Assembly: GCA_963827905.1 (NCBI GenBank)
Contig: CAWHCB010000001.1
Coordinates: 52,963-116,962, forward strand
Length of the DNA: 64,000 bases
Direction of reading: 5' to 3'
From: Methanomassiliicoccaceae archaeon
Lineage (GTDB): Archaea > Thermoplasmatota > Thermoplasmata > Methanomassiliicoccales > UBA472
The notes under the pieces: generated by a model
What the model saw: only the letters and a program-made list of their open reading frames with translations
Told to the model about the DNA's origin: nothing
The model's database searches: none
Shown here: positions 2,847 through 52,214 of the stretch, piece after piece
How the letters are laid out: each line of letters starts with the position of its first letter
Position numbering within the stretch: position 1 is the stretch's first letter
Made by a program: the position numbers and the translations under genes

Positions 2847-3617
2847 ATGGCATACAAGAGACAGTTCTACCCCGGAACTTCGCTACCTGCGAAGAACAGG
2901 CGCAAGTTCTACGACCCGAACTACAAGCTGGAAAAGCTCCGTGACGTCGCGATGGATGACGTCGTCCGCATCATGGGCCACAGAAAGCCCGGTGAGGACT
3001 ACAAGTCCATCCACCCGCCACTGGACGAGGGCAATGAGCCCGACTGCCCGGTAAGGCAGATGGTTGTCCCAATCGAGGGTGCCAAGAAAGGAGACAGGAT
3101 CAGGTACGTACAGTTCACTGACTCCGTCTACTGGGCCCCCGCGATCCCCTACATCCGCGCTAACATGTACATGTCGCGCATCAGGGGTATCGACACCGGT
3201 ACCTTGTCCGGCAGGCAGATCATCGAGATGAGAGAGAGGGACCTCGAAAAGGTCGCCAAGGAGTACATCGACAATGAGACCTTCGACCCGGCCAGGACCG
3301 GAATCAGGGGCGCCACCGTGCACGGGCACGCTTGCCGCCTCGACGAGAACGGCCTGATGTTCGACGCCTGGCAGAGATACAGGTGGAACGCCAAGAAGGG
3401 AGAGGTCGAGTATGTGAAGGACCAGGTCGCCATTCCCTTGGACAAGCCGATCTCCGTCGGCAAGCCAATGGACGACAAGTGGCTGAAGGCCCACACCACC
3501 ATGTTCCGCGCCGATGGCGTTGACATGAGGGATGACGCCGAGGTCATGGCCCAGAACCTGAGGATCCACAGGCTGAGGACGCTGTGCGGATACCAGTCCT
3601 TCGCCCAAAAGGAGTGA
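2847..3617 (+). CDS. mcrG: Methyl-coenzyme M reductase gamma subunit
   Basis: [12 protein letters not shown]..., [46 protein letters not shown] and [11 protein letters not shown] are classic McrG. I chose the ATG at 2847 rather than the ORF-track start at 2832. Confidence 0.95.
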
Positions 3618-3622
3618 TCAAG

Positions 3623-5290
3623 ATGGCAGGAAAAGAGAAGGACAAGCTGTTCCTCGCAGCGATGAAGAAGAAGTTCAAGGAGGCCCCTACCGAGGTCAAC
3701 ACCAACTACTACACCTTCGGTGGATGGAAGCAGTCCAAGAGGAAGCGCGAGTGGGTCGAGCAGGCCAACAAGATCGCAAAGCAGCGCGGCATCCCCATGA
3801 TGAACCAGGACATTGGTGTCCCGCTCGGACAGCGTGTGCTCATGCCCTACCAGCTGAGCCACACCGACATATATGTCGAGGCGGACGACCTCCACTTCGT
3901 CAACAACGCCGCTATGCAGCAGGCTTGGGACGACATCAGGAGGACCGTAGTCAGCGGTCTGGACACTGCCCACGCAGTCATTGAGAAGAGGCTCGGCAAG
4001 GAAGTCACGCCTGAGACCATCAACCACTATCTGGAGACCGTCAACCACGCTATGCCTGGTGGCGCCGTCGTGCAGGAGCACATGGCTGAGTGCAGCCCCG
4101 CCCTGACCGCCGACTGCTACGTCAAGGTGTTCTCCGGTGACGACGAGCTCATCGACGAGATCGACAAGCCCTACGTCATCAACATCAACAAGGAGTTCCC
4201 CGCGGACCAGGCCAAGCAGCTGAAGGAGGCCATCGGTAAGAGCCTCTGGCAGGCCATTCGCTGCCCGACCATCGTCGGACGCGTTTGCGACGGTGGTACG
4301 ATGTCCAGGTGGTCTGCGATGCAGATCTCGATGTCCTTCATCAGCAGCTACAAGTTGGCTGCCGGTGAGGCCGCCATCGCCGACTTCGCCTTCGCCGCCA
4401 AGCACGCCTCGGTGCTAGAGATGGGTACCATGATGCCCGCTCGCCGCGCCCGTGGCCCCAACGAGCCCGGTGGAATTCCATTCGGGTTCCTGGCTGACAT
4501 GGTGCAGTCCCAGCGCAAGTACCCCGACGACCCAGTCCGCGCCTCCCTTGAGACCGTGGCCTTGGGCGCCGTGATCTTCGACCAGATCTACCTCGGCAGC
4601 TACATGTCCGGCGGTGTCGGCTTCACGCAGTACGCCACTGCGGCCTACACCGACAACATCCTCGAGGACTACTGCTACTGGGCCGCTGACCTGGTGAAGA
4701 CCAAGTACGGTGGCTTCTGCAAGACCAAGCCGACCATGGAGCTCGTCGAGAAGCTGGGCACGGAGATCAACTCCTATGCCCTGGAGATGTACGAGAAGTA
4801 CCCGGCCGCGATGGAGGCCCACTTCGGTGGTTCCCAGCGTGCGACCGTGGCCGCAGCCGCCACCGGTATCGGTGTCGCCATGGCCACCGCCAACGCCAAC
4901 GCCGGTGTCAACGCCTGGTACCTTTCCATGCTGCAGCACCGTGAGCGCATGGGCCGCCTAGGCTTCTACGGCTATGACCTGCAGGACATGTGCGGAGCGT
5001 CCAACTCGCTCTCGTACAGGTCCGACGAGGGTCTGCCGCACGAGCTCCGTGGACCCAACTACCCGAACTACGCGATGAACGTGGGTCACCTATCTGGATA
5101 CGCTGGTATCGCCTGCGCCCCGCACGCCGCTCGCGGCGATGCGTTCGCATGCAACCCGCTGATCAAGGTGGCCTTCGCGGACAAGAACCTACCGTTCGAC
5201 TTCGCGAACATCACCAAGGAGTTCGGTCGTGGCGGTCTGCGCGAGTTCATGCCAGCCGGTGAGAGGACAGTTATCATCCCCGCGAAGTGA
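3623..5290 (+). CDS. mcrA: Methyl-coenzyme M reductase alpha subunit
   Basis: 555-aa intact ORF with GGAG 8 nt upstream. McrA hallmarks present: [74 protein letters not shown]. Confidence 0.97.
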
Positions 5291-11185: not shown

Positions 11186-13202
11186 ATGAAGGGTCCGGCC
11201 CTCGAGCTTCTTTATGTCGATGACGAAACGCTCCTCCTAGAGCTAATCAAGGACGTCCTGGAATCGAACGACCAGGTACATGTGGACACCTTCCCTAGCG
11301 TCAAGGAGGCGGAGCTGGCGCTGAAGAGCAATCGCTACGACGCCATAATCTCCGACTACCAGATGCCGGAGATCGATGGTATAACCTTCCTCAAACGTCT
11401 TCGCACGGCCGGCAACGACATGCCCGTTCGTGCTGTTCACCGGGCGAGGCAGGGAGGAGGTGGTCATCGAGGCCCTCAACGAAGGGGCGGATTTCTATCT
11501 CCAGAAAGGCCCGGACGTCAAGGACATGACCTTCGAGCTCATGCACAAGGTGAGGGTGGCGGTAGAGCGTAAGAGCTCGCAGCGGGTGCTCAGGGAGAGC
11601 GAGAGGACCGCCTGGACCTTGTTGAACGTGGGCGAGAGCCCAAGCCTTCTCTTCGACCGCGACGGTAGGATCATCGCCGCCAATCAGTTCATGGCCGACC
11701 TCATGAGCTGCCCCCCGGAGAAGATGGTGGGACGGAGCGCCTTGGACGTTATCTCCCCCGGTTCTCTGGAGAGGGCCTCCCATCTGGTGGAACGGGTGGC
11801 CAGGACCAGGAAGGCCATCACCTTCGTGGGCGAGAGCTACCTGAAACATTTCGAATTCACCCTCTATCCTGTCATCGAAGCGGAGGACGAGGTAAAGCGA
11901 CTGGCATTGGTGTCCTATGACACCTCGACCCACATGCGTACCGAGACTGAGCTAAGAAAGAGATTGGCCATGGAGGAACTGGTCTCCGAGGTGACCTCAT
12001 CCCTGCTCCTCGCATCCACCGCTGAACTGGGCGATCGGATCGTGGACACATTGGTATCCGTGGGCCATGCGATGGAATTGGACGCACTGACAATATTCAA
12101 TTTCGACGGCGAGGCCCTGGTGCACCGTTACGGCGTGTCGATGCTGGAAGGAAAGGACCCTCGCACCGACGAGATAAGGGAGTGGCAATGGCCCTGGTCC
12201 TTTGCGAGAATGCGCTCCGGCAACATGATCGGTATCGATGATGTGCAGGACCTTCCCAATGAGGCCTGGAGCGACCAGGAGCATTATCAGAGCTCCCATT
12301 ATAGCGCCCTGTTGTTGGTACCGATGTCCGTCGGAGGGGCGTTCACCGGATGCCTCATGCTCGGCATGGTCCGGGGGACGAGACGTTGGTCCGATGAGGA
12401 CCAAAGATTGGCAAGGGTGCTGGGGAACATCTATGCGAGCACGCTCTCGCGGCGCCGGGCGGAGGAAGAGCTATCCGAGACGAGCAGGCGCCTGTTGGAG
12501 GCGCAAGGTGGCCCGGTCGAGACTGGGACGACTGAGAATCTGGTTGAGGCGGCATTGCGCACCGCCAACCGAAAGCTCACCCTGCTCAGCAGCATCACCA
12601 GGCATGACATCCTCAATCAGGTCAGCGTCCTAGCCGGATACTTGGAATTGACGCGAATGGCCAACCGAAACCCAGACCTCGGGCAGAACCTGGACCGGAT
12701 GGAGATCGCGATAAAGAGGGTCCAGGAGAGCATATCGTTCACCAAGGAATATGAGCAGCTTGGGGCACTGGGGCCTAGCTGGCAATCGTTGGAAAAGGTG
12801 GTAAGGGACTCCAGTGTCGGATTGGAGCTGAAAGGGATCGAGCTCGTCAGCGATGTGAAAGGTTTCGAGGTTTTCGCAGATAAAATGCTCGATCGGGTCT
12901 TCATGAACCTCATCGACAACAGCATGAGGCACGGGGAAGGGGTCAAGCACATCAAGGTCTGTGGCGAAGAGAAGGGAGATGAGCTCAGCATCATCTACGA
13001 GGACGATGGTGCTGGGATTTCTCAGGACATGAGGGGGAAGTTGTTCCGGCGGGGCGCCGGCAGGAACACAGGCTTCGGGCTCTTCCTGTGCAAGGAGATA
13101 CTAGACCTGACCCGGATCACGATAACCGAGATAGGTGAGCCAGGTGAGGGGGCCAAGTTCCTCATGAAGGTACCTAAGGGCATTTATCGTTACACGAAAT
13201 AA
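11186..13202 (+). CDS. Hybrid response regulator - PAS - GAF - histidine kinase; one frame break near 11425
   Basis: REC domain (LLYVDDE..., AIISDYQMPEIDG, then after the shift VLFTGRGREEVVIEALNEGADFYLQK). Then a PAS segment, a GAF-like segment, an H-box (ITRHDILNQV) and HATPase_c (NLIDNSMRHGEG, DDGAGIS, GFGLFLCKEI). Confidence 0.8.
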
Positions 13203-30828: not shown

Positions 30829-33674
30829 TCAATTCTTAACGCGCAGCGCCTCGATGGAGGTCTGCGCCACCTCATGTTTTATCAATTCCCTCAGACGGAA
30901 CAGCGCCAGCGATTCGCATATCTGTTTCCAGAAGGTCCGCAGCACCTCCCGCCTCTCATATGGTATCAGCTCTTCCCTGGTGGAGGCCAAGGCCATGATG
31001 CCATAGGGTTTGGCGCCGTTGGTCAATGGGAATGCCACGAATGACTCGACGCCCCAGGTCTTGGCCCAATCGTTCCGGTCCATGACCTTCTCTCCCCAGA
31101 TCGGCTCATGGCTGTTCATATACTGGACCAATTGGGGATAATTTCCGTTCATCCCTTCCAGGACTTGTAAGCCCTCACTCGGTATGCCATGATGGGCCAC
31201 CAGCTTCAAACCGCCAATGCCGTTGTTGAAGAAGACCGCTCCGGCATCAAAACGGTTACGGTCGATAAGGAGCTTCAGAGCCTCCCCGAGCATCTCCTCC
31301 TCGGCGACACAATCCTCGGACAGGTTGGCCAGACCCGCGGCGGTCAGGAAGTCCTCCCTCTTCTCCTCGATCTTGCTCGCCAGAGCGTTGGAATGGCTGA
31401 CATCTCGGGAGAAGGCGACGATGGCCACATCGTCCTCCCATGGCATAGCCATCGTGGACGTCTCCACATCCATGAGGGTGCGGTCCTTGCGGCGATGCTT
31501 CCCCTCCACCCGTGACCGACTCACCGGCGATGACCTTGTCCCTCAGGGCGGCCAGGTCGTCCCGGTTCCAACCCTCCACGATCAAGGAGAGATGGTTTCC
31601 GACCATCTCCTCCCGACTATATCCCAGGTCGGAACAGCTCCTCGGGTTGGCCTCTAGGATGGTGCCATTGTAAGGATGGATGACCAGGACGCTCTCCATC
31701 ACCGTATTGAGGAAACAGAGGTTGCGCGCCTCGCTCCTTCTTAGACTCACTTCGAGCCGCTTCTCCTCGGTGATGTCCTTGGCGATGCCGAGTATGCCCA
31801 CGGACTCGCCGCTGTCACGGCGGATCAACATCATCTTCTGTTCGCTCCAGAAGAACGTGCCGTCCTTGCGCAGGACCTTGGTCTCTACCTTCAGCACCGG
31901 GTTCTCTTTGCCCTGATGTTGTTTGGCCAGGTTCTTAAGGGTCTTGTAGGCCTCTTCTAGCTTCTCAATGGACTCTTGGTCGAGGCACCGTTTCATCATT
32001 TCGAAATCGATCGGTCCCCCGTTCAGTCCCAAGGACCTTCTCATGTTGCTGCTGACATAAAGGAATTGGAAGTCGAGGTCGGTTATCCAGATATCCTCGG
32101 AGATGTTCTGCATTATTGTCTCGAGCTTCTGTTGCTCCAGTTTGAGGGCTATCTCCTTCTCGACCCGGTCGGTCACGTTCCGCACCAGCGCCCGGTAGCC
32201 TCGGAACATGTTGTCATCGTCGAAGAAGGGTATGCCGTTCATCTCGAAATGCAGGACCTTCTCGTCGGAACGACGGGCGCGGTAGCGCACGGAGAAGAAG
32301 GGCTGCATGCGGCTCAACAACGGTTCCATCTCCTCCACCAGGCTCAACCGGTCCTCCTCCTCCATCAGGTCGAAGGGGGCCTTGCCTATCACCTCCCGGA
32401 CCGGGATGCCGGTGATGGTCTCGAAGTTGGAGCTCAGGTAACGGATGCTCAGGTCCTGGTCTATCTCCGCGAAGATGTCCTGCGAGTGGAGGTTGAGGTG
32501 GGGGTGATGCACACTGTTGGTCTGGAACTCGTAGGCGATGCGGTTGCGCATCGAGGCATCATGCAAAATGGCGATGATGCAGGACGGCTTCCCGGTCGAT
32601 TCCAGTAGCACTGCCGCGCTGATCTCCATCAACAGGCTCGTCCCGTTGTCCCTCTGAAAGATGAACTCGGACTGGAAATGCTCATGGTTACGCAACAGCT
32701 CTTGGAAGTAGTTGTTGGCCCGGTTCCTCTCCCCTTCCGCGATGAAAGAGTAGAAGTTCCTGCCTATCAGCTCGTTGGCCTTGGTGGCCCCAAGCAAACT
32801 GACCCCTGCCAAGTTCACGGACTCCATGCGCCCTCCCGGGCTTAGGGTGATGATCGGGTCAGGTGACGATTCGAAGAGAATGCTATAGCGGTCCTCCGCT
32901 ATCATCAGGTCCTCCACCGCCTTCTTGTGGGTGGTCACGTCCCTGCAGGCGGCGATCATGCCCATATAAGCGCCGTCCACATCGAAAAGAGGCATGGCCA
33001 AGCCCTCCAGGTGAACCACGGTGCCGGATTTTGATATGATCACGAACTGGAGCGCAGAGGGCTCCTGAGCATTCTGCTTGACCTCTTCCAATTGGGAGTG
33101 GAACCTAGGCATCTCGATGGTGGGCGTCAACCTCCAGAGCACCTTGCCCTTGAGGTCGGTGTGCGTATAGCCCAGGATCTTGCGCACGCTCTCGCTCGAG
33201 AAGGTTATCTGCCCCTTCTCGTCGATGCGCCAGACCCAATCGGCCAAGTTCTCCATCTTGTCCAACAAGCTCATCTCGGTCGGCTCGTTGTGGTCCCCGT
33301 TGTAACCGCCCCCAAGTCTTTCCACGTCGGTGGTGAGGCGGCGGAACATATCGTCCACGTCCATGTCCAGGGGATAGATGAGATCGGCCCCGTTGTTGGC
33401 CAGTTCAGTGACGCCGACGATATCCACATTTTGGAAAAGGACCACCACCGGGGTCGTCACCATCTGCTGGTTGATATGGTTCAGAACTGGGATGACATTG
33501 CATCGGGGGTCGTGCAGCATGATCAGCGCTCTGCGCGTAACCGCTGATCTGGTCATCGAGGAAGGCATCGATGTCGGCCACCAGGCCGGCGCAGTAGCCC
33601 CGGCTCACCAGGTCCTCCCTCAGCGAGTCAACATAAGGTTGACCGTTGTCCAGGACCCAGAATATCGACTGCAT
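30829..33674 (-). CDS. Multi-PAS / C-terminal GAF sensor protein with an N-terminal receiver-like domain and no recognisable output domain; frame broken near 33545 and near 31510
   Basis: Fragments 33405..33674, 31256..33568 and 30829..31524 read through as about 948 aa. There are five or six PAS-like repeats, each with a WxxD..G motif. The tail is GAF-like (GAVFFNNGIGGLKLVAHHG...VAFPL...YGIMALAS). Confidence 0.75.
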
Positions 33675-36421: not shown

Positions 36422-36467
36422 CTACACCCAATCGAAGCTCTTGGTTCATCTACATGTCTATCAACGA

Positions 36468-36498
36468 ATGCAAAGAATTGTTACGAGTTATTTTGCAT
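36468..36498 (+). promoter_or_regulatory. Inverted repeat ATGCAAA-N17-TTTGCAT in the copA / regulator divergent intergenic region (candidate operator)
   Basis: Arms at 36468-36474 and 36492-36498 within a 158-bp AT-rich spacer. The function is inferred from position only. Confidence 0.25.
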
Positions 36499-36579
36499 TC
36501 TTAATTTCAGTATAACCTCTACTAGTTTGTTCGTTTAACGGATATCTTTATTAATGATTGTTTAATTCCCCTTTTCCAT

Positions 36580-37628: not shown

Positions 37629-38319
37629 TCATCTCATCTCCTCGAGATATCTAGGCAGTTGGGCGATGGATGGGATTATCCTTTCCACGCCCAGATCCTC
37701 CCAACCCTTCCGACCATTATGTCCGCTCAGGACCGCCACGAACATCGAGCCGGCCGAACGGGCGCATTCCAGGTCCATCAAATGATCCCCGATCAGGACG
37801 CATTGTTCCGGTCGAAGGTTCAGGGCGGCGGCGGCCCGACGCATGGCCTCCGGGTGAGGTTTCGCTTCCGAGACGTCGTGATCGTCCCGGCAGATGATGG
37901 CGTCCAGCATCCCTGTCAGATGCGATGCGCGAAGAGCTTCCGTGGCATAATGCCGGGACCCTCGGGTCAACAAAGCCAGCGGATACCCCATAGCGCGAAG
38001 TGTTCTCAATGCATCGCCTGCCCCAGGCACTTCCTTCGTGCGATCGCACGGACATCATTTCCACCTCGACGCAGATGGCCTCGACCCTCGTTTCGATGGT
38101 CTCGAGGTCTAGATTCAATTCGCGGATCTCTTACCGCACCCTGTCCATGTTCTTGGCGATAGTGTCCGATCGTTCCAGAACATATCCCAAACCGATTTCG
38201 ATCAGATATCTGAAGACACGATCTCTCATGAGCCCGAAGTCGATCGTGCTTTCGATCAAGGTCCCGTCTAGATCGAAAACGATTCCAAGCTTCTTCGGAC
38301 CTTCCCTTCTTTCACTCAT
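37629..38319 (-). CDS. HAD-superfamily phosphatase; frame broken near 38128 and near 38032
   Basis: Motif I IVFDLDGTLIES. After two shifts come motif II/III regions LLTRGSR, KPHPE and IGDHLMDLECARSAG. Confidence 0.7.
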
Positions 38320-38591
38320 TTGATAACGTGAGGAACGTTCGAATTAATAAAAAATCATAGACGGGACGATTTTTATCGATTCGGATAGTATTTCATTATA
38401 AATACCATGATTATCAAATCTGATAAATCATTTAAACTGGACATGATTATCATAGAATAAAAATCATTCAATAATATAGAAAGATTTTTATCATTACTGA
38501 TATTTAATGTTTAGTGTAGCATGCTCAAAGACGCTTTTAATATCAACAATGATAAACAGGTTTGCATAATAATTTGGTGCAGGTGAAGTTG

Positions 38592-38984
38592 ATGCAGAAG
38601 GCAACAAAGACAATCTTGGCCGTATTGGTCGGCGTAGTCGCCGTGCTTGCGTGCCTTGCGATGGTGGGCTCCTTCCTAGGTGTGGCAGCCCTCGCCATCC
38701 CGGGCGTAGACCCGCATGCGATCCCTGGTGTTGACCCACACGTCATCCCCGGTGTCGATCCACATGTCATACCTGGCGTGGACCCTCATGCGATCCCTGG
38801 TGTTGACCCACATGTCATCCCTGGTGTCGATCCGCATGTCATACCTGGCGTGGACCCTCATGTGATTCCCGGTGTTGATCCGCATGCCATCCCGGGTGTC
38901 GATCCACATGTGATACCTGGCGTGGACCCTCATGTGATCCCTGGTGTTGACCCCCACATCATACCTGGAACTGACCCCCACTAA
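38592..38984 (+). CDS. Membrane-anchored protein consisting of 12 tandem IPGVDPH[A/V/I] octapeptides
   Basis: ATG 38592 follows GGTGAAG. An N-terminal hydrophobic helix (TILAVLVGVVAVLACLAMVGSFLGVAALA) is followed directly by the repeat array up to the TAA at 38982-38984. An AT-rich promoter-like region lies upstream. Confidence 0.65.
   Translation: MQKATKTILAVLVGVVAVLACLAMVGSFLGVAALAIPGVDPHAIPGVDPHVIPGVDPHVIPGVDPHAIPGVDPHVIPGVDPHVIPGVDPHVIPGVDPHAIPGVDPHVIPGVDPHVIPGVDPHIIPGTDPH
38697..38981 (+). repeat. Tandem 24-bp coding repeat x12 with a 72-bp (three-unit) higher-order periodicity
   Basis: Every third unit (4, 7, 10) reads ATACCTGGCGTGGACCCTCATG(C/T)G. Units 2/5/11 and 3/6/9 form two further near-identical classes. 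The last unit is degenerate (IPGTDPH). Confidence 0.95.
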
Positions 38985-39047
38985 GGGTTGAAGATCTTTC
39001 CTTCCCAAACTATTTTCAAACACCTTACTTATTTTTCCTAAAAAAGA

Positions 39048-41739
39048 TCAGGCCATGATCTTAGCCATGCTGTCCTTCGCATCCCGCATGATCCTCTCGT
39101 GACCGATGCGCGAAGCCACGGAGTAGGCCTCCTCGTAAAGTTTCATGGCCTCTTCCTTCTCGTTGTTCTCCATATAGACCGAGGCGATCTCAAGCAGCCA
39201 TAGCGCCAACCTCGAGGGGATGTCGAAACCTCTTAAGGTGTCCAGGCTGAGCTTGAACTCCTCCTTGGCCCATTCCCAGTCGCCCCTCATATTGTAGAGG
39301 AAGCCACGATAGAAGTGCATGTTCGATATCATCACCTGGTCGTTGAGCTTGATGAAGAGCTTGGTGGCCTCATGCAATAGCTCGTCCGCTTTGGCCAGGT
39401 CGTTCCTCGCCAGGTACTCTGCCGCTTGGTTCGATAGCGCATAGGCCAATGTGTTGATGTCGCCGACCGAGGTGGCCAGGTCGACCGCCCTTTCCAGGTA
39501 TTTCAGGCCTTCATCGCCCTGTTTGATGGAACGCATGTCATTGCCGATACCTATGCAGACCTTGGAGGTCATGTTCACATCGCCAGTGCGCTCGAGGATG
39601 TTAAGGGACTCCTTCTTCAATCGCACCGCTTCGGAATATTCCAAAAGGCTTGCCTTGACCCTGCCCAGACCATAGAGGGACCTTCCTAAGCGCTATCTTA
39701 TCCCCAACGCCGCGAGCGAAGTCTCCGGCCGCCTCGAAGTTCTGTACCGCCTCGTCGAACTTACCGCGGCGCTCCAGCAAACCCCCGGTGTCATAATATA
39801 TGTCCGCCAGGGTCTGTGAGTCCCGGATGTCATTGGCTATGCTGGACGCATCTGCCAAATGTTGAGATGAGCTATCGTACAGGTTGCGCTTCATCTCCAG
39901 CACTCCCAGCCTCCGGTGCACCTCGGCCTTGAGACGGGAGCCCTTGTCGACAGGCAGGTCCTCTAGCATCTCGGTGAGCTCTTCCACCGCCCTTTCATAC
40001 TCTCCATGCAGCTCCAGGATCTGGGCGTGCAACATGAGGAGCTCCATACGGTCCCGGTTCGCCTGACCCTTGGTCTCCACCAGCAAGCGGCTGAGCAAGG
40101 GGTCGAACTGCATGGCGTAACCTTTGGAGATGATCTCCTGGCCACTCCCCGCCGCCACCTCCACCGCCTTCTCCAGGTCCTTTGCCATGATGCAATGGTA
40201 CAACGCCTCCACCTTGGATGAGTGCGAGGAGTCCTGGATATAGAACTTGGAAGCGGCCCGATGGTAGATCATCCTCTGCCTCGGCGTCAATCGCGAATAG
40301 GTGAACTCACGAAGCAGGTCGTGCATGCCGATCATGCGCCCGATGGACTCATGGAGGATGGATTTGGAAATCAGAGAGTCGACCGTTTCGTACGAGACGG
40401 TGTAATCGATGTCCTGGAGCTCGATCTCCTTTCCGTTGAGGTCCTTGCGGATCTCCTCCTCGGTGATGAAAAAGGCGTCCATGATCACCGGGTAACGGAA
40501 CACCGATGCCACGTTCATGATGCGCTTCTCCGCCACATCCAGTTTGGAGACCACCTCCTGATCGATGAACATGCGGATGTTCTTCCCCAATGCCGATTGA
40601 GGCTCCTCGATGAGCTCGAGGAACAGAGGATGCCCCTTCGTGATCTGGATGACCTGCTCTATGTCTCCCTCGGGCATGGAGCGGGCCCTCAGCATCCTCA
40701 GGCTGCTCTCCCGGTCCAATCCCTCCATCTGCATCTCCCTGATCAGGTTTCGTATGACCAGGCTTCGAGAATAGAAGGCGGGGACCTCGCGGGTGGCACA
40801 GACCACCCTGATCTTGGGCAGCTCCTCGATCATGTTGATAAGCGCGTTGAGGAAATCGAGCACCAGGCGTTCGCCCTTGTGCACATCGTCGAATATGAGC
40901 AGGACCGGGATGTCTCCCATGTCCGTGATAAGGATCTGCAAGACCTCACCAGTGTGAGGGGTCTCGTTCTGATTGAGGTACCATTCCAGGTTCTTCTTTC
41001 CCAGTTGGGAGAGGAACTCCGCCAGAGGTCGCAGCAGGCCTCGCACATTGACCCATTCATGTATCTTGAGCCAGAACACGTTGGTCTGTTCTCGGACATC
41101 CTGGGCGAACTTCGCTAGTAATGTGGTCTTACCTATCCCTGGGATTCCATATATTATGATGGCCCTGGTGCTCTCACCGTTGATCAGGTCCATCAGCTGA
41201 CGGTATTCCTTCTCTCTGCCGAAGAAGGACCGGACCGCCGGCTTTTTGTCGGTAAAGTCGACGAAACGCCTCTCCTCTTTGGTCTTGGACTCATGGAAGG
41301 ACCGGCAATCGAACTTACCCCTGGCAACCCCCATGATTATCTCCAGGAAGGTATAGTTGCCGGGCATGTAGACGGAAAGACGGCCCACTTCGTCCTGGTG
41401 CAGGTCTCCCTTAAGGTCGATGACCTCGACCTTCATCGCCTCGAGGTCCTCCTTGAGATGCTTGGCCTCATCGAAGCCTTTGGTGGAAAGGAAATAGACC
41501 CGGCGGACGCTCGGAAGGCCCTTTACGTGCTTGGAAAGGATATCGACGATGCGCTCGTTGGCCATCTCGTTCAAGATTTTGGCTACGTTGTTGCGACCGA
41601 CCTCCACCGCATCCGCTATGCCCTCTTGAATGACGGCTTTGGGGGCATCAGCGTCCTGACTGTACCTCTGGTAGGCAAGTAGGTGCAGTAGCACCCTCTC
41701 CCGGGCAGTCAATAATGACTTCCGGGCGGCTCGGTTCAC
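39048..41739 (-). CDS. STAND/NB-ARC-type ATPase with an N-terminal wHTH and a C-terminal TPR array (MalT/AfsR-like regulator); one frame break near 39690
   Basis: Walker A IIIYGIPGIGKTTLL, Walker B VLLIFDDVH, then helical-repeat/TPR-like sequence through to ...RIMRDAKDSMAKIMA*. Fragments 39601..41739 and 39048..39644 join as ...GDKIAL/(GK)SLYGLGRVKASLLEYSEA. Confidence 0.8.
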
Positions 41740-41887
41740 GGACTAAGATTGTTTTCTTGAATAAAAATAATTCCCTTCAAATTATTATCTTTGAGGATAA
41801 GATAGACTCTCATTTCAAAATGAGCATGCTCAAAATCAGTTTTTATATCACGAAAATGAAAGGGTATGTGCTAGCAGAGTGTACGTT

Positions 41888-42457
41888 ATGTCTCCTGAGG
41901 ATGCCAATATGAACGTGGTCATGCTGGTCGAGGGTTTTCCTCGGCTCGGTTTCAGTTCCTTTGCCAGCATGATCGCCGATGGCACCCCCGGTGTCTGCAT
42001 AACCCGGTTGCATCCAGAGTACGTGATGGAGAAGTTCGGTCTTTTATCGCCCAAGTACTACTGGCTCAGCGGAAGCAAAGGGGACAACGTGATCTCTCCC
42101 AAGACCTTGACCGCTCTTACGAAGGCGGTCAAGCAGGAGGCGAAGGACCGGAAGGTGATATTCTTCCTGGACGGTCTGGAGTACCTCCTGCTTTGGAACG
42201 ACATGCGCAAGTTGCTCGCCACCCTCGAGGAGATCAACCAGGCCTTGAAGGTGAACGGTGGGGTGATGTACATCGGCATTGACCCACTCACCCTGGAGCA
42301 GAAGGACCTGGACCGGTTATGGGCGGTGTTCCCCAAGATGCAGCTGGACGAGAGCACGGTCAAGGAAGCCCAGCGATCCGGACAGGGCGAGGCAGTGTCG
42401 CAAGGTCAGATAACTGGAGGGCAGCATCCCGGCCGCCCTTTGACCGCATCGATGTGA
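41888..42457 (+). CDS. DUF835 domain protein
   Basis: GVCITRLHPEYV...YYWLS..., FFLDGLEYLLLWND and YIGIDPLTLEQKDL match DUF835 as I recall it. A second member is at 62112..62609. Confidence 0.6.
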   Translation: MSPEDANMNVVMLVEGFPRLGFSSFASMIADGTPGVCITRLHPEYVMEKFGLLSPKYYWLSGSKGDNVISPKTLTALTKAVKQEAKDRKVIFFLDGLEYLLLWNDMRKLLATLEEINQALKVNGGVMYIGIDPLTLEQKDLDRLWAVFPKMQLDESTVKEAQRSGQGEAVSQGQITGGQHPGRPLTASM

Positions 42458-49500: not shown

Positions 49501-52214
49501 CCTGTATGCCGCAGCTTCCGAGCGCGGTCACATAGGCGTAGTTGTCGACATCTCCGCTCTCCGGGGCGACGGTGGTGTAGGTGAACTCCCACTTGGCACC
49601 GACGGCCAGGACGCCACCGTTATCGGTGTAGGTCAACGTCACGCCGACCGGCGGGTCGTTGAATACCACGTTGCTCAACGGGGTGTCTCCGGTGTTCATT
49701 ATGGAGAATGTCCAAACGATGTCCGCACCAGGCTCTACGTTGTCAGGACCGCCCTTCTCGATGCTGATCTTCGGGTTAACTACGCTAACCGAGACAGAAT
49801 CGCTGCTGTCGCTGACGTCGCCGAACTGTGAGCTAGCGACTACGGAACCGACGTTGGTCACGGTGCCGGAGGTCATCGGGGCGTTGGATGTCTTGGTGCC
49901 ACGAATAGGCTCGCTCCAACGACCAGGTCAGGCAAGGCCTTGTTCGTTGATGCCCAACAGCGGGTCGTCTGAACAGAACGTTGGTCAGGTTGATGTTACC
50001 GATGTTGTTGACAGTGAACTGCCACACGATCGGCGCTCCCACCTGAACGCACTGGGGGCGCTTCTTTATTATCTCAATTCCTGGGCTGTCCAGAACGACC
50101 TCGACCACAAATGCCGATGAATCGGATACGTCGGTCACATCGCCACATTGGGACTGAAGCGGTGACGGTGGCCACGTTCGTCACAGTTCCGGGCTCCGTT
50201 AGGCGCGATGGACTTCAAGGTGAAGTTCCAGTACGCACCGACCGCAAGGACTCCTCCGTTGTCGGTGTAGGTCTTGCTCACGGCGAGCAATGGGTCATCA
50301 AAGATGACGTTGATCAACGGGGCGTCTCCGATGTTCTTGATGGAGAAGGTCCAAACGATCTCGCTACCGGCTCCGACCTCGCTGTTCGGTCCACCCTTGA
50401 CGATATCGATCGCGGGGTTGATCACCAGTGACGGAGTGGTCGTCGGTAACGTTCAACTGCGCTCCACAGGGGGCGTCAGCGGTCACATAGGCGTAGTTGA
50501 CTGCAGATCCAGTGGCTCCCGGGGTCGTCACATAGGTGAAGGTCCAAGAGGCTCCTGGGGCCAGGCTGGCCAAGGGCACAGTCACGCCGGCGGGCGGGTC
50601 GACGAGCACGAGGTTGGTCAGCGCCACATCGCCGGTGTTCGTGATGTTGAACGTCCAGGTGATGGAGTCGCCGAGCCTGATGCAGTCAGGGCCGCCCTTC
50701 TACGAAGGTCATGGACGGGTTGACGATGGTAACGGTCGCATCATCCATGGCCTCTACGTCATTCCACAGGAGGCGGTCGCGGTTACGGACGCCTCGTTCT
50801 TAACAGAGCCGCTCATCGGCGCAAGGCTGGTCTTGGTGAACACGAAGCTGGCACCTGGGGCAAGGTTACCAAGGTTCTGGTTCGATATTGCCAGCGCGGC
50901 ATCGCTGAACAGCACGTTGTTCAATTGGACATCGCCAGTGTTGGTGATGTTGAAGGACCATGTGATGGTCGCTCCGCCTCCGACGCACTCCGGTCCGGTC
51001 TTCACGAGGCTTATGCTCGGGTTGACCACGTTGACCGTGGTGGTGGAGGAGTTAGACAACGGCATGCAAGCGAACTTGCCGTATACCGTCGCGGTGTTCA
51101 CGAGCTTGCTCGGCGTGGTCTCATCGGTCTGGTATTCCACGGTGAAGGTCACTTCGCTGCCGGCGGCCATGTCGCCGATGTAGTGGTTCAAGGAGTCAGG
51201 GAACATCGGGTCGAGCACGGTCACGTTGTTGAGGTAGGCATCACCGATGTTGTACACCGTGAAGGTGTAGGTGATCATGTCTCCCCTCTTGACGCACTCC
51301 GGTGCGGATTTCACGATCTTGATACCAGGCTCGAAGTTGGTGGACAGCTTAACAGTCTCGCTGGCCATCTGGGTCGCGCCCGAGTCGCTCTCAGTGAGCG
51401 TCGCGGTGTTGGTCAGATCGACCTCCTGGAAGAAGCTCGCGAAGACGTTGGTGACCTTTAACGTGTAAGATACCGTTTGGTTATCGGTAAGGGTCCACGG
51501 CCCAACGGTGGTAGGTGATGTCACCCATCCAGAGGGGGCGGTCCAAACGTCTGTCAAGGTAGCGTTGGCGTCCTCTCCGTCCGCCTGCAAGGGCGTGGAG
51601 GTTGCCTTAACGCTCATGACGGCTTCCGCGGCCATCGATTGACCGGTCCGGTCGATCAGGTTGCTGATCGACACACGCTCAATGTTCTGGTACGTTGCAC
51701 CCTCTACATGCTTGAAATAGACGGTGAACGGGTACGAGAACTCTTCTCCCGCTGCCAACACCGGCTTCTTGCTGGTGTCGACGGCGATCGAGGCAACGTC
51801 AACGAAACCGTTTCCAACGTTGGCCTGCACCACATCTGTGATCATCAAGTTCTTGGTCGCGGCGGAGCCCACGTTCTTAACGTGGACGCTGCCTTTGACA
51901 GCCATCACAGAAGCAGAGTCAGAAGCCGTACGGGACGCGGTAATCGTATAAGTCACGTCAGCTGATTCTCCTGGCGCCAATAGCAAAAAGTCAGGAGTGG
52001 CGGTTTTACTCAAGGTCCAATCATACGCTTGAGTAGTTGCTATAGTTGGTTGCGCATCCTGGTCGACGCTGACCTGTGTACTAGTCTGAGATGATCCAGA
52101 GGCATTTCCGAACCAATCTGGATTCATACTTCCGACCAATAACAGGACGCCTACCGTACATAGTGCTAGCACTACGATGATGGCTACCACTTTCTGGGCA
52201 CCTGATTTATTCAT
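43569..52214 (-). pseudogene. Giant surface/adhesin-like locus (about 2,880 codons). N-terminal signal anchor, then Cys-poor DUF11 repeats (52.2-49.3 kb), then Cys-rich repeat modules (49.3-43.6 kb). At least 20 frame breaks; may be one gene or a fusion of two.
   Basis: GGGGAGGA Shine-Dalgarno plus MNKSGAQKVVAIIVVLALCTVGVLLLVG. The N-terminal domain is paralogous to the 13.6-kb locus. About 20 consecutive ORF fragments on the - strand all carry the ...PG..I.Y.I.V.N.G...L..V.V.D... pattern. Later modules add CLAPCE / (Y)TVP.DW.YC.DGE.(I/L).N motifs. The last stop is TGA at 43571-43569. Confidence 0.7.

What the first reader, a model, noticed from the sequence alone, without database searches (positions are those of the whole stretch)
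38592..38984. Orphan membrane-anchored protein built from 12 perfect IPGVDPH[A/V/I] octapeptides, with a 72-bp higher-order DNA repeat
After one N-terminal hydrophobic helix, the whole protein is (IPGVDPHx)x12. That places one His and one Asp every 8 residues, plus two Pro and a PG turn, reminiscent of elastin-like VPGxG units. At the DNA level the 24-bp units fall into three synonymous-codon classes that recur every third unit. Units 4, 7 and 10 are almost identical. The array therefore expanded by duplication of a 72-bp triplet, and the peptide is conserved while codons drift, which is evidence that it is translated and under selection. The regular D/H spacing suggests a surface metal-binding or mineral/ion-buffering ruler. 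The gene sits 1.4 kb from the copper-resistance locus and is convergent with a STAND-type regulator. I know of no described family with this repeat.
Basis: partly seen in the sequence, partly recalled or inferred. Interest (0 to 1): 0.7.

Follow-up and report, generated by a model that had tools for sequence, protein, structure and literature searches.

The report
Secreted tandem-heptapeptide precursor gene in methanogens
A small gene found only in Methanomassiliicoccales methanogens encodes an export signal followed by up to 13 copies of one strictly conserved seven-residue peptide. It shares a specific promoter element with the neighbouring signalling genes, so it looks more like a candidate archaeal peptide-signal precursor than a metal-binding ruler.

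Summary
The ORF at 38592-38984 (+) is real. It has a 35-residue signal-like N-terminus, then 11 x IPGVDPH[A/V/I] and a final IPGTDPH-stop. The DNA has a 72-bp higher-order period. All 32 nucleotide differences among the units fall on third codon positions.

It is not an orphan. I recovered about 40 distinct homologues, all from Methanomassiliicoccales genomes or metagenomes. Each has a K/R n-region, a hydrophobic core, an AxA-like site and then 1-13 copies of I-P-[G/L/C]-x-[D/E/S]-P-H. Thirty-eight of 40 end exactly at ...PH-stop. No Pfam or NCBIfam family and no paper covers it.

The gene always lies between a HAD hydrolase gene and a convergent wHTH-STAND-TPR regulator (PH0952/MalT-like), followed by DUF835 (inactive-KaiC) genes. 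An 11-mer containing the palindrome AGCATGCT sits just upstream of the TATA box of both the repeat gene and the DUF835 gene. These are its only two copies in 64 kb (0.02 expected), and it is conserved across the family.

Best reading (about 0.35): an exported multi-copy propeptide in a peptide-signalling loop with a STAND receptor, functionally like PlcR/PapR or Rap/Phr.

The copper or metal-ruler idea is weakly supported. Asp is replaced by Ser in several lineages, and the copA-lrp intergenic region, which holds both promoters, lacks the shared element.

The parts
38592..38984 (+). Gene for the repeat pre-pro-polypeptide (130 aa plus stop)
   Evidence: The ORF and its translation are. Homologues with the same architecture appear in about 50 loci. 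The codon-position pattern supports translation.
38592..38696 (+). N-terminal export signal: n-region MQKATK, hydrophobic core, and c-region ending A-L-A immediately before the first unit
   Evidence: The sequence is. AlphaFold2 models a helix at residues 2-34 with pLDDT 83-96. The same n/h/AxA layout occurs in all homologues. It was not run through a signal-peptide predictor.
38697..38981 (+). Array of 12 units: 11 x IPGVDPH[A/V/I] plus a terminal IPGTDPH. It has three synonymous-codon classes and a 72-bp higher-order period
   Evidence: AlphaFold2 gives pLDDT about 47 and no secondary structure.
38518..38528 (+). Conserved element AGCATGCTCAA (palindromic core AGCATGCT), about 6 nt upstream of the TATA-like box of the repeat gene
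   Evidence: There are two exact copies in 64 kb against 0.02 expected. It is exact in 39 of 49 related loci and has one mismatch in 6, always at the same distance.
38535..38543 (+). TATA-like box TTTTAATAT, homologous to TTTTTTATA / TTTTATATA in relatives
   Evidence: It aligns with the promoter regions of the relatives. The function is inferred.
38582..38586 (+). Shine-Dalgarno-like GGTGA, 5 nt before the ATG
   Evidence: It is visible, and GGTGA/GGTGAGG lies at the same place in most relatives. The function is inferred.
38374..38554 (.). Four TATC-N6-GATA palindromes (38374, 38412, 38489, 38541) in the HAD/repeat-gene intergenic region. The last one overlaps the TATA-proximal region
   Evidence: The window has 10 matches against 0.53 expected. 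The sites are conserved only in close relatives L011 and L002.
39029..39039 (+). T-rich stretch (TTATTTTTCC) between the convergent genes, a probable terminator
   Evidence: It is visible. Relatives have a hairpin plus a T-run at the same place. The function is inferred.
39048..41739 (-). Convergent wHTH-NOD(STAND ATPase)-TPR regulator. In this window it is split into 712-aa and 198-aa ORFs by one extra base near 39691
   Evidence: Pfam hits are AAA_16, ATPase_2, NB-ARC, TPR_12 and TPR_MalT. The best solved relative is PH0952 (6mfv), E = 4.5e-20. The gene is intact (896 aa) in L011, L014 and L041.
41823..41833 (+). Second copy of AGCATGCTCAA, followed by TTTTTATAT, in the STAND/DUF835 divergent promoter region and oriented toward the DUF835 gene
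   Evidence: The same second copy occurs in L001, L007, L009, L011, L012, L014, L018, L019, L024, L027, L031, L036, L041, L050 and L063-L065.
41786..41799 (.). Fifth local TATC-N6-GATA palindrome, between the STAND start codon and the shared element
41879..42457 (+). DUF835 (inactivated KaiC-like signalling domain) gene; the start is probably the ATG at 41888
   Evidence: Pfam PF05763, E = 1.3e-21. The domain is classed as iKaiC in PMC5847659.

Best explanation
The gene encodes an exported pre-pro-polypeptide: a Sec-type signal peptide, a short pro-piece, and then tandem copies of a heptapeptide I-P-[G/L/C]-x-[D/E/S]-P-H, which is IPGVDPH in this window. I propose that the polypeptide is cut after each His and that spacers are trimmed back to the exopeptidase-resistant Ile-Pro end. 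This would release many identical hepta- or octapeptides per translation product. The gene would belong to the adjacent signalling module, with which it shares a TATA-proximal palindromic operator (AGCATGCT). In this model the peptide is the inducer sensed, directly or indirectly, by the TPR sensor of the MalT/PH0952-like wHTH-STAND regulator, which in turn controls the peptide gene and the DUF835 gene. That would make an autoinducer loop that works like PlcR/PapR or Rap/Phr but uses a STAND receptor.

Shown: a real, translated, strongly constrained gene; a family restricted to Methanomassiliicoccales; a fixed position next to the STAND gene; a shared conserved promoter element.

Inferred: signal-peptide cleavage, proteolytic release, signalling function, and the identity of the receptor and of the operator-binding protein.
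For: (1) Constraint on every copy. In the window and in about 50 related arrays, unit pairs differ at 3-5 of the 7 third codon positions and at about 0 first or second positions.
(2) The motif is the functional unit, not the composition. I1, P2, P6 and H7 are invariant across the 48 distinct motif variants collected from the 40 proteins. The exceptions are one L, one M, and one ITG lineage that fell outside that filter. Positions 3-5 and the linker differ between lineages but are nearly always uniform within a protein.
(3) Several lineages interleave perfect motifs with decayed units or spacers. Examples are SIMDVSSLV, GWTWTDCLSYV, and IFAGIEAL alternating with R-IPGLEPH. This layout resembles a polyprotein precursor.
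(4) Thirty-eight of 40 distinct complete proteins stop exactly after ...PH.
(5) Copy number is labile, from 1 or 3 up to 13, even between 100% identical flanks (L064 has 3, L065 has 1).
(6) All members have a K/R n-region, a hydrophobic core of about 20 residues and small residues in an AxA-like pattern. Nothing follows the repeats, and AlphaFold2 predicts no fold for them.
(7) AGCATGCTCAA occurs exactly twice in 64 kb (0.02 expected), next to the TATA boxes of the repeat gene and of the DUF835 gene. The pair is conserved across relatives whose STAND proteins are only 45-50% identical.
(8) The neighbour is a transcription-factor-type STAND with a TPR sensor whose inducer class is unknown.
(9) There is precedent for multi-copy autoinducer repeats in Phr and NprX propeptides and in fungal pheromone genes (PMC5199041).
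Against: No experimental data exist. No processing protease or peptide importer was found in the window. Adjacency to the STAND gene is not discriminating, because the whole CopA-Lrp-RidA-HAD-repeat-STAND-DUF835 block is syntenic in every relative. The protein that binds the shared operator is unknown. STAND paralogues of about 30% identity have no such neighbour. The test for covariation between peptide type and TPR sensor divergence was weak and not phylogenetically controlled. The hydrophobic core is long enough to be a membrane anchor, and I could not run a signal-peptide predictor. The single-copy allele (L065) could be an assembly collapse of a perfect repeat. In this window the STAND gene carries a frameshift; it is probably an assembly error, but if real the putative receptor would be broken here while the 12-copy gene is intact.
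Confidence: 0.35

Rival explanations
1. The product is an uncleaved, surface-tethered or secreted disordered polymer that works as a multivalent display of a short linear motif. It could serve as an adhesive, a matrix component, or a ligand for an extracellular partner. No small peptide is released.
For: A single N-terminal hydrophobic helix is followed by a Pro/Gly-rich region with no predicted structure. Strict motif conservation with tolerated spacers also fits a repeated binding epitope. Copy-number variation is typical of surface repeat proteins.
Against: There is no globular domain to present or anchor. Forms with 3 copies, and possibly 1, exist. Termination exactly at ...PH in 38 of 40 proteins is not required by this model. 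The conserved AxA-like site suggests the anchor is removed. Co-regulation with cytoplasmic signalling genes is unexplained.
Confidence: 0.25
2. The His/Asp octapeptide array is a metal-binding or ion-buffering ruler (Cu, Ni or Zn) that is functionally linked to the nearby CopA / TRASH-Lrp copper locus.
For: One invariant His occurs every 8 residues and is preceded by Pro. From my own knowledge, this is formally like the prion PHGGGWGQ octarepeat, where Pro forces Cu(II) coordination towards the C-terminal side. An acidic residue is present in most lineages. CopA and a TRASH-domain Lrp regulator lie within 2.2 kb in every relative.
Against: Asp/Glu is replaced by Ser in IPGNSPH and IPGVSPH lineages, whereas the non-ligand residues I, P and P are invariant. 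Decayed units lose the His, and low-copy forms exist. The copA-lrp intergenic region, which holds both promoters, lacks the AGCATGCTCAA element that links the repeat gene to DUF835/STAND. RidA and HAD genes lie in between, and the synteny is uninformative. One His per 8 residues is a weak site, and these are strict anaerobes in which Cu(I) dominates (my own knowledge).
Confidence: 0.12
3. The product is a precursor of a post-translationally modified peptide or cofactor (RiPP-like, with a multi-core precursor).
For: Multi-core precursors with conserved core repeats are known in fungal dikaritins, cyanobactins and microviridins (my own knowledge). The strict core conservation would fit.
Against: No radical-SAM, YcaO, lanthionine-type or other maturase gene is conserved next to the gene. 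The neighbours are HAD, RidA, STAND and DUF835. The N-terminus looks like a Sec signal rather than a RiPP leader.
Confidence: 0.05
4. The feature is not a protein-coding gene. It would be a DNA-level tandem repeat such as protein-binding iterons, or the real gene would be the minus-strand ORF 38676-39023.
For: Tandem repeats generate long ORFs in several frames on both strands.
Against: All 32 unit differences are synonymous in the + frame. The same is true in about 50 arrays. The start, signal peptide, frame and stop are conserved across relatives whose flanking DNA is only about 72-74% identical.
Confidence: 0.01

Closest known systems
RRNPP-type peptide quorum sensing of Firmicutes (PlcR/PapR, Rap/Phr, NprR/NprX), including Phr and NprX propeptides with several copies of the autoinducer
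   Same: Both have a small ORF with an N-terminal secretion signal and the presumptive active peptide at the C-terminal end. Both place it next to a cytoplasmic TPR-containing transcription regulator. Here a shared palindromic box sits at the promoter of the peptide gene and of a receptor-side gene, as the PlcR box does. Intragenic duplication of the peptide unit is documented for Phr and NprX (PMC5199041).
   Different: The candidate receptor is a roughly 896-aa wHTH-STAND ATPase-TPR protein, not a 250-500-aa XRE-HTH/TPR protein, and it is not homologous to Rap, NprR, PlcR or PrgX. The organism is an archaeon; the two large RRNPP surveys I read do not mention archaea. The copy number reaches 13. 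The genes are convergent. No Opp importer or maturation protease was identified.
Eukaryotic multi-copy pheromone or peptide precursors (yeast alpha-factor, fungal pheromone genes, KEX2-processed repeat precursors)
   Same: Both have a signal peptide followed by tandem identical copies of a short peptide separated by spacers. Copy number varies between strains.
   Different: There are no dibasic KR cleavage sites; only one lineage has a single Arg before each motif. There is no sequence homology, and the processing machinery is unknown.
MalT / PH0952-type STAND transcription factors with a TPR sensor (for the neighbouring gene)
   Same: The neighbour has an N-terminal winged-helix DNA-binding domain, a NOD ATPase and a TPR sensor. 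PH0952 (PDB 6mfv) is the best solved relative at E = 4.5e-20 over residues 165-820.
   Different: The known inducer of the family archetype MalT is maltotriose. No peptide-sensing member is described in the paper I read. The inducer here is unknown.
His-containing metal-binding octarepeats (prion PHGGGWGQ) and elastin-like VPGXG repeats
   Same: The prion repeat also has period 8 with Pro-His. The elastin repeat shares the hydrophobic-Pro-Gly start. All are Pro/Gly-rich and disordered.
   Different: There is no Gly run after His and no second Gly of the VPGXG unit, and the period is 8 rather than 5. The acidic residue is not conserved. The eukaryote-like period-8 repeat proteins found by HMMER share only composition.

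Membership tests
Any Pfam-A or NCBIfam family | A score above the curated gathering threshold of a family model | tested here: not met
   The best Pfam hit is Mtr2 at 21.8 bits, below its 23.7-bit cut-off and on a low-complexity stretch. The best NCBIfam hit scores 10.1 bits against a cut-off of 186.
RRNPP quorum-sensing propeptide | A small ORF with an N-terminal Sec-type signal sequence | tested here: inconclusive
   A K/R n-region, a hydrophobic core and an AxA-like c-region are present in all members. No signal-peptide predictor was available, so a signal anchor is not excluded.
RRNPP quorum-sensing propeptide | A location directly adjacent to the gene of its cytoplasmic TPR receptor | tested here: met
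   The gene is convergent with a TPR-containing regulator across a 63-bp gap in the window. The same arrangement holds in every locus that extends far enough.
RRNPP quorum-sensing propeptide | A receptor homologous to Rap/NprR/PlcR/PrgX (XRE-type HTH or phosphatase domain plus TPR, about 250-500 aa) | tested here: not met
   The neighbour is 896 aa and has a STAND NOD (AAA_16, ATPase_2, NB-ARC). Its closest solved relative is PH0952. No RRNPP structure appears among the PDB hits.
RRNPP quorum-sensing propeptide | A mature peptide released from the C-terminal part, re-imported by Opp and bound by the receptor | not testable with these tools
   Only indirect evidence exists: 38 of 40 proteins end at the motif boundary. 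No Opp genes were seen in the window.
KEX2-type multi-copy peptide precursors (alpha-factor, dikaritins) | A signal peptide followed by tandem core peptides | tested here: met
   
KEX2-type multi-copy peptide precursors (alpha-factor, dikaritins) | Dibasic (KR/RR) processing sites flanking each core | tested here: not met
   The linkers are single A, V, I, M, T, N or Q residues. Only the P0162/P0163/P0166 lineage has one Arg before each motif.
MalT/PH0952-like STAND transcription factor (neighbouring gene) | A NOD ATPase with P-loop, an arm plus TPR sensor, and a DNA-binding effector domain | tested here: met
   Pfam finds AAA_16, ATPase_2, NB-ARC, TPR_12 and TPR_MalT. The Walker A sequence GIPGIGKTT is visible in the sequence. 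The PH0952 match has E = 4.5e-20. JGI names some orthologues MarR/PadR-TPR or MalT.
Elastin-like polypeptide | A pentapeptide VPGXG period | tested here: not met
   The period is 8 residues (24 nt), and the unit IPGVDPHx lacks the second Gly.
Prion-type Cu(II) octarepeat | PH followed by Gly residues whose amides complete the Cu site, with the repeat conserved for its ligand residues | tested here: not met
   His is followed by a bulky linker, then Ile-Pro. The acidic residue is replaced by Ser in several lineages. Metal affinity itself is not testable here.
Archaeal class III (type IV pilin-like) signal peptide proteins | A [K/R]-[G/A] cleavage motif immediately before the hydrophobic segment | tested here: not met
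   The residue before the hydrophobic core is almost always Thr (KT, RT), never G or A. This comes from sequence inspection against the pattern as I recall it.
Archaeosortase/PGF-CTERM-type surface proteins | A C-terminal sorting motif plus a transmembrane helix and a basic tail | tested here: not met
   The proteins end at ...PH with no C-terminal hydrophobic segment.

The most novel reading that the evidence does not exclude
This locus would be the first peptide-pheromone (autoinducer) system described in Archaea. A Sec-exported polyprotein yields many copies of a lineage-specific heptapeptide (IPGVDPH, IPGIDPH, IPLIDPH and others). The peptide is sensed by the TPR domain of a MalT-like STAND ATPase transcription factor, which then activates the peptide gene and an inactive-KaiC (DUF835) output gene through a shared AGCATGCT operator. 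It would also be the first STAND regulator with a peptide inducer encoded next to it.
Probability: 0.25. Interest if true: 0.9.

Novelty: new variant of a known kind. Interest (0 to 1): 0.7.

Why it matters
Peptide-based cell-cell signalling is well known in Gram-positive bacteria, phages and fungi. My literature searches found no archaeal case, and the reported archaeal quorum signals I know of are non-peptide molecules.

This locus gives a concrete and testable candidate. It has a defined peptide, a defined candidate receptor of a class (TPR-STAND) whose archaeal inducers are unknown, and a defined operator. It is present in the cultivable Methanomassiliicoccus luminyensis lineage and in gut, rumen and digester relatives that matter for methane emission.

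Even if the signalling idea is wrong, the family is an unusually clean example of selection holding up to 13 tandem copies of one heptapeptide identical while their codons diverge. Most gene callers also miss or truncate it.

Tried and rejected
- **Pfam and NCBIfam scans of the protein.** Nothing scored above threshold.
- **Exact-sequence look-up of the window protein.** It is not on record.
- **Full HMMER search of 1.8 billion representatives.** It gave 2295 hits, but the strong ones are long eukaryote-like period-8 repeat proteins (DPVYTPGT, GIPGVSPH and similar) that share only composition. The true relatives there were P0054, P0131 and P0001-4.
- **Literature string search for six motif variants.** It returned zero papers.
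- **Testing whether the neighbour identifies the function.** This failed because the whole block is syntenic.
- **Contexts of STAND paralogues at about 30% identity.** One contig ended at the gene (L066). Two others (L067, L068) have an ApbA-STAND-TGT context with no repeat ORF.
- **Covariation of peptide type with TPR-sensor divergence.** The trend was small (coefficient +0.02; 0.76 versus 0.52-0.61 in sparse bins). The pairs are not independent, so I treat it as inconclusive.
- **The TATC-N6-GATA palindromes as the family-wide operator.** Rejected, because they are conserved only in close relatives.
- **A CAAACACCTT element downstream of the gene.** It is present in only 10 of 35 loci, so I dropped it.
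- **The extra DNA between the repeat gene and STAND in L021.** It is an IS110-like transposase insertion, not a system component.
- **Other signal or anchor types.** Lipobox, Tat, class III pilin-signal and C-terminal sorting-signal readings were rejected on sequence inspection.
- **AlphaFold2 of the protein.** It gave only the N-terminal helix, so no fold search was run.
Full report
**1. The observation.**
The + strand ORF 38592-38984 encodes MQKATKTILAVLVGVVAVLACLAMVGSFLGVAALA followed by repeats that start at 38697. There are 11 octapeptides IPGVDPH[A/V/I] and a twelfth unit IPGTDPH that runs straight into the stop codon. The units are therefore not quite '12 perfect'.

Tandem Repeats Finder reports period 24 (74% matches) and period 72 (88% matches, score 401). 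Units 1/4/7/10, 2/5/8/11 and 3/6/9 are three synonymous-codon classes. Unit 7 is identical to unit 10, and unit 4 differs from them by 1 nt. Among units 1-11, every one of the 7 third codon positions of the heptapeptide varies and none of the 14 first or second positions does. That is 32 versus 0 differences to the consensus, and the placement probability is 8.6e-6. The + frame is therefore translated and under purifying selection. The long minus-strand ORFs are by-products of the repeat.

GGTGA lies 5 nt before the ATG, and a T-run follows the stop.

**2. It is a family, not an orphan.**
A first protein search found four relatives with the same build. I then scanned for the back-translated pattern IPGxxPHxIPGxxPH.
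- In 185,579 species genomes it gave 21 stretches. Eighteen are in Methanomassiliicoccales MAGs and three are chance matches in actinobacteria.
- In metagenomes it gave 30 stretches, 27 of them family members.
- A profile search added more, named only 'hypothetical protein' where named at all.

Forty distinct complete proteins (43-138 aa) resulted. All have the same build:
- a K/R n-region, usually ending in Thr;
- a hydrophobic core of about 20 residues;
- small residues in an AxA-like pattern (ALA, YSA, AEA, NLA, APA, DLA, DVA);
- a short variable piece;
- then 1-13 copies of the motif.

Across the family the motif is I-P-[G/L/C]-x-[D/E/S]-P-H. Variants are IPGVDPH, IPGIDPH, IPGLEPH, IPGLDPH, IPGMDPH, IPGFDPH, IPGTDPH, IPGNDPH, IPGNSPH, IPGVSPH and IPLIDPH. 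One lineage alternates IPCIDPH with IPGIDPH, and one lineage has ITGVDPH.

I, P2, P6 and H are essentially invariant. Positions 3-5 and the one-residue linker differ between lineages but are nearly always uniform within a protein. Thirty-eight of the 40 end at ...PH-stop. One exception is an N-masked record. The other is L058 (...PHSISF). The ITGVDPH lineage, which fell outside that filter, ends ...PHAIAGF.

No Pfam or NCBIfam model reaches threshold, and no paper in the library contains any of six motif strings. A full HMMER scan of 1.8 billion representatives returned many strong hits. Those are long eukaryote-like proteins with unrelated period-8 repeats.

**3. Evolution of the arrays.**
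In about 50 arrays, unit pairs differ at 3-5 of 7 third positions and at about 0 first or second positions. Several arrays are built from 2-unit (48-bp) blocks, as in L025, L029 and L038. The window uses a 3-unit (72-bp) block. The arrays therefore expand and contract by block duplication of codon-diverged units, while every copy keeps the same peptide.

Copy number differs between near-identical sequences:
- window 12, L056 12, L011 13;
- L002 5, L041 9;
- L021 12, L027 4, L057 3.

Some lineages interleave perfect motifs with decayed units or longer spacers. Examples are SIMDVSSLV, GWTWTDCLSYV, MITDFLANI, and R-IPGLEPH alternating with IFAGIEAL. This shows that the heptapeptide, not the bulk composition or a regular spacing, is what selection preserves.

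**4. The M. luminyensis lineage.**
The STAND orthologue named by NCBI as a Methanomassiliicoccus luminyensis TPR protein (P0236) occurs on two metagenome contigs. These contigs are 100% identical except for 48 bp. L064 encodes MMKTRTLAIMGVAICVGALGVAIAFGALSVPLVGY(TIPLIDPH)x3, and L065 encodes the same protein with one unit.

A signal peptide followed by a single C-terminal octapeptide is the layout of classical Phr/PapR-type propeptides. That layout is hard to reconcile with a ruler or stalk. The caveat is that a perfect 24-bp repeat can be collapsed by short-read assemblers.

**5. Structure.**
AlphaFold2 (single sequence) gives a confident helix for residues 2-34. The repeats get pLDDT about 47 and no secondary structure. 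This agrees with a disordered Pro/Gly-rich chain, so no fold search was warranted.

**6. Neighbourhood.**
In every locus long enough to judge, the gene order is:

CopA - Lrp/TRASH - (RidA) - HAD <- -> repeat gene -> <- STAND <- -> DUF835 (x1-2)

. Because the whole block is syntenic, adjacency alone cannot say which neighbour is the functional partner.

The convergent neighbour is about 896 aa. It has an N-terminal winged helix, a P-loop NOD (AAA_16, ATPase_2, NB-ARC) and a TPR_12/TPR_MalT sensor. Its closest solved relative is PH0952 of Pyrococcus horikoshii (6mfv, E = 4.5e-20). [quoted passage not shown] The paper describing it names maltotriose as the inducer of MalT but names no inducer for PH0952. 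DUF835 is classed as an inactivated KaiC-like signalling output domain (PMC5847659).

**7. A shared promoter element links the repeat gene to the signalling module.**
The 11-mer AGCATGCTCAA (palindromic core AGCATGCT) occurs exactly twice in the 64-kb window, where 0.02 copies are expected.
- One copy is at 38518, a few bases upstream of the TATA-like box of the repeat gene.
- The other is at 41823, upstream of TTTTTATAT in the STAND/DUF835 divergent promoter and oriented toward DUF835.

It is exact in 39 of 49 related loci with enough upstream sequence. It has one mismatch in 6 and two mismatches in 3, always at the same distance from the gene. The second copy is present at the DUF835/STAND promoter in every locus that reaches it, including relatives whose STAND is only 45-50% identical.

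The copA-lrp intergenic region (36422-36579), which holds both of those promoters, has no copy, even allowing one mismatch. This is the strongest evidence that the repeat gene belongs with the STAND/DUF835 module and not with the copper genes. Which protein binds the element is unknown. The wHTH of the STAND regulator is the most economical candidate, but that is an inference.

In the window's own clade there are in addition four TATC-N6-GATA palindromes upstream of the repeat gene and one upstream of the STAND gene. The window has 10 in total against 0.53 expected. These are not conserved in distant relatives.

**8. Best mechanism.**
The protein is exported. The signal peptide is probably removed at the AxA-like site. 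The remaining chain consists only of motif copies and spacers, and I propose it is cut into hepta- or octapeptides.

The motif has Pro at position 2 and at the penultimate position. From general knowledge, such prolines protect bioactive peptides from amino- and carboxypeptidases. Trimming back to Ile-Pro would explain why one-residue linkers and 8-11-residue spacers are equally tolerated. It would also explain why the protein normally ends at His.

The released peptide would be the inducer of the TPR-STAND regulator, which would act on the two AGCATGCT promoters. This works like PlcR/PapR or Rap/Phr, where multi-copy propeptides are documented (PMC5199041).

It is not a member of the RRNPP family. 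The receptor class is different, and the two RRNPP surveys I read do not mention archaea.

I give this about 0.35. Export, cleavage, release, sensing and the identity of the operator-binding protein are all inferred.

**9. Rivals.**
- *Uncleaved multivalent surface or secreted polymer (0.25).* It fits the disorder and the motif conservation. It does not explain the exact C-terminal end, the low-copy forms or the co-regulation.
However, Asp is replaced by Ser in several lineages, the non-ligand residues are just as invariant, decayed units lose His, and nothing links the promoter to the copper genes.
- *RiPP or cofactor precursor (0.05).* No maturase gene is conserved nearby.
- *Non-coding repeat or opposite-strand gene (0.01).* This is excluded by the codon pattern.

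**10. Tests that did not help.**
- STAND paralogues of about 30% identity (L066-L068) either end at the contig edge or lack a neighbouring repeat ORF.
- The TPR sensor evolves faster than the NOD (46-50% versus 64% mean identity). Pairs with the same peptide have slightly more similar sensors at equal NOD identity. The pairs are not independent, so I treat this as inconclusive.
- No Opp-type importer or obvious protease is in the window.

**11. Caveat on the window itself.**
Relative to L011, L014 and L041, the window has one extra base near 39691 that splits the STAND gene into 712-aa and 198-aa ORFs. Single-base indels also disrupt RidA (37388) and HAD (37875-38046). A closely related long contig (L007) has a different indel 20 nt away. 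These look like assembly errors rather than pseudogenes, but that needs read-level confirmation.

**12. Verdict.**
The metal-ruler interpretation is weakly supported.

The feature is a previously undescribed Methanomassiliicoccales-specific family of exported tandem-heptapeptide proteins, co-regulated with a TPR-STAND/DUF835 signalling module. The most interesting reading not excluded is an archaeal peptide autoinducer system (probability about 0.25). It is directly testable in M. luminyensis.

Noticed in passing
window 39691 (STAND), 37388 (RidA), 37875/37986/38046 (HAD): Single-base indels relative to close relatives split the STAND regulator (712 + 198 aa), RidA and HAD into overlapping ORFs. 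The related contig L007 has a different indel 20 nt from the STAND one. This suggests long-read assembly errors rather than true pseudogenes.
   Followed up: partly
window 38374, 38412, 38489, 38541, 41786, 52301, 52408, 53287, 58090, 62868: The palindrome TATC-N6-GATA occurs 10 times against 0.53 expected. Four copies are upstream of the repeat gene and one is upstream of the STAND gene. Two are upstream of a DUF11/DUF7507 surface-protein gene (50754-52214, minus strand). It is conserved only in close relatives, and the binding factor is unknown.
   Followed up: partly
L044, L046, L050, L054 (metagenome contigs): One lineage alternates IPCIDPH and IPGIDPH units (Gly to Cys at motif position 3). 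This is reproducible on four independent contigs with 5 or 7 copies. It may be a transitional two-peptide state, like the diverged Phr duplicates described in PMC5199041.
   Followed up: no
L038 vs L040 vs L025 vs L029: The signal peptides are closely similar, but all copies are switched at motif position 4 (IPGMDPH x7, IPGFDPH x4, IPGVDPH x7, IPGLDPH x6). Within each array the codons are diverged. The flanks are only about 72-74% identical in DNA.
   Followed up: partly
L005, L006, L015, L018 (and P0157, P0160): A decayed unit of the form S/T-I-x-x-x-S-S-L-V (IQGLSSLV, IADASSLV, IMDVSSLV, IVGISMV) is itself conserved before the last or second-to-last motif copy in the IPGN[SD]PH / IPGVSPH clade. 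The 'spacer' may therefore carry information of its own.
   Followed up: no
L021 4950-5945 (minus strand): An IS110-like transposase ORF of 331 aa is inserted between the repeat gene and the STAND gene in one MAG. Both genes remain intact.
   Followed up: no
L007 / L010 (adjacent pieces of contig CAWBKY010000004.1): The array of this close relative contains one aberrant unit AFRCDPH in place of xIPGVDPH, which probably reflects compensating indel errors. In another MAG (L014 / L017) the assembly breaks inside the array.
   Followed up: no
P0041, P0084 and other hits: Long eukaryote-like proteins carry period-8 repeats such as GIPGVSPH/GIAGLSPH and GIPGASPN that superficially resemble the archaeal motif. 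This is probably convergent low complexity. They swamp HMMER searches with E-values down to 1e-96.
   Followed up: partly
window 3584-5290 (+); 11430-13202 (+); 31256-33568 (-): The window also carries methyl-coenzyme M reductase alpha (McrA), a PAS histidine kinase and a multi-PAS sensor protein. McrA confirms a methanogen origin.
   Followed up: no
database records P0054, P0164, P0131: Public gene calls for this family are often truncated or frameshifted inside the array (for example P0164 ends ...IPGVVRMQYLAWTRMRSPV). Many loci have no gene call at all, as in L065. The family is therefore under-represented in protein databases.
   Followed up: no
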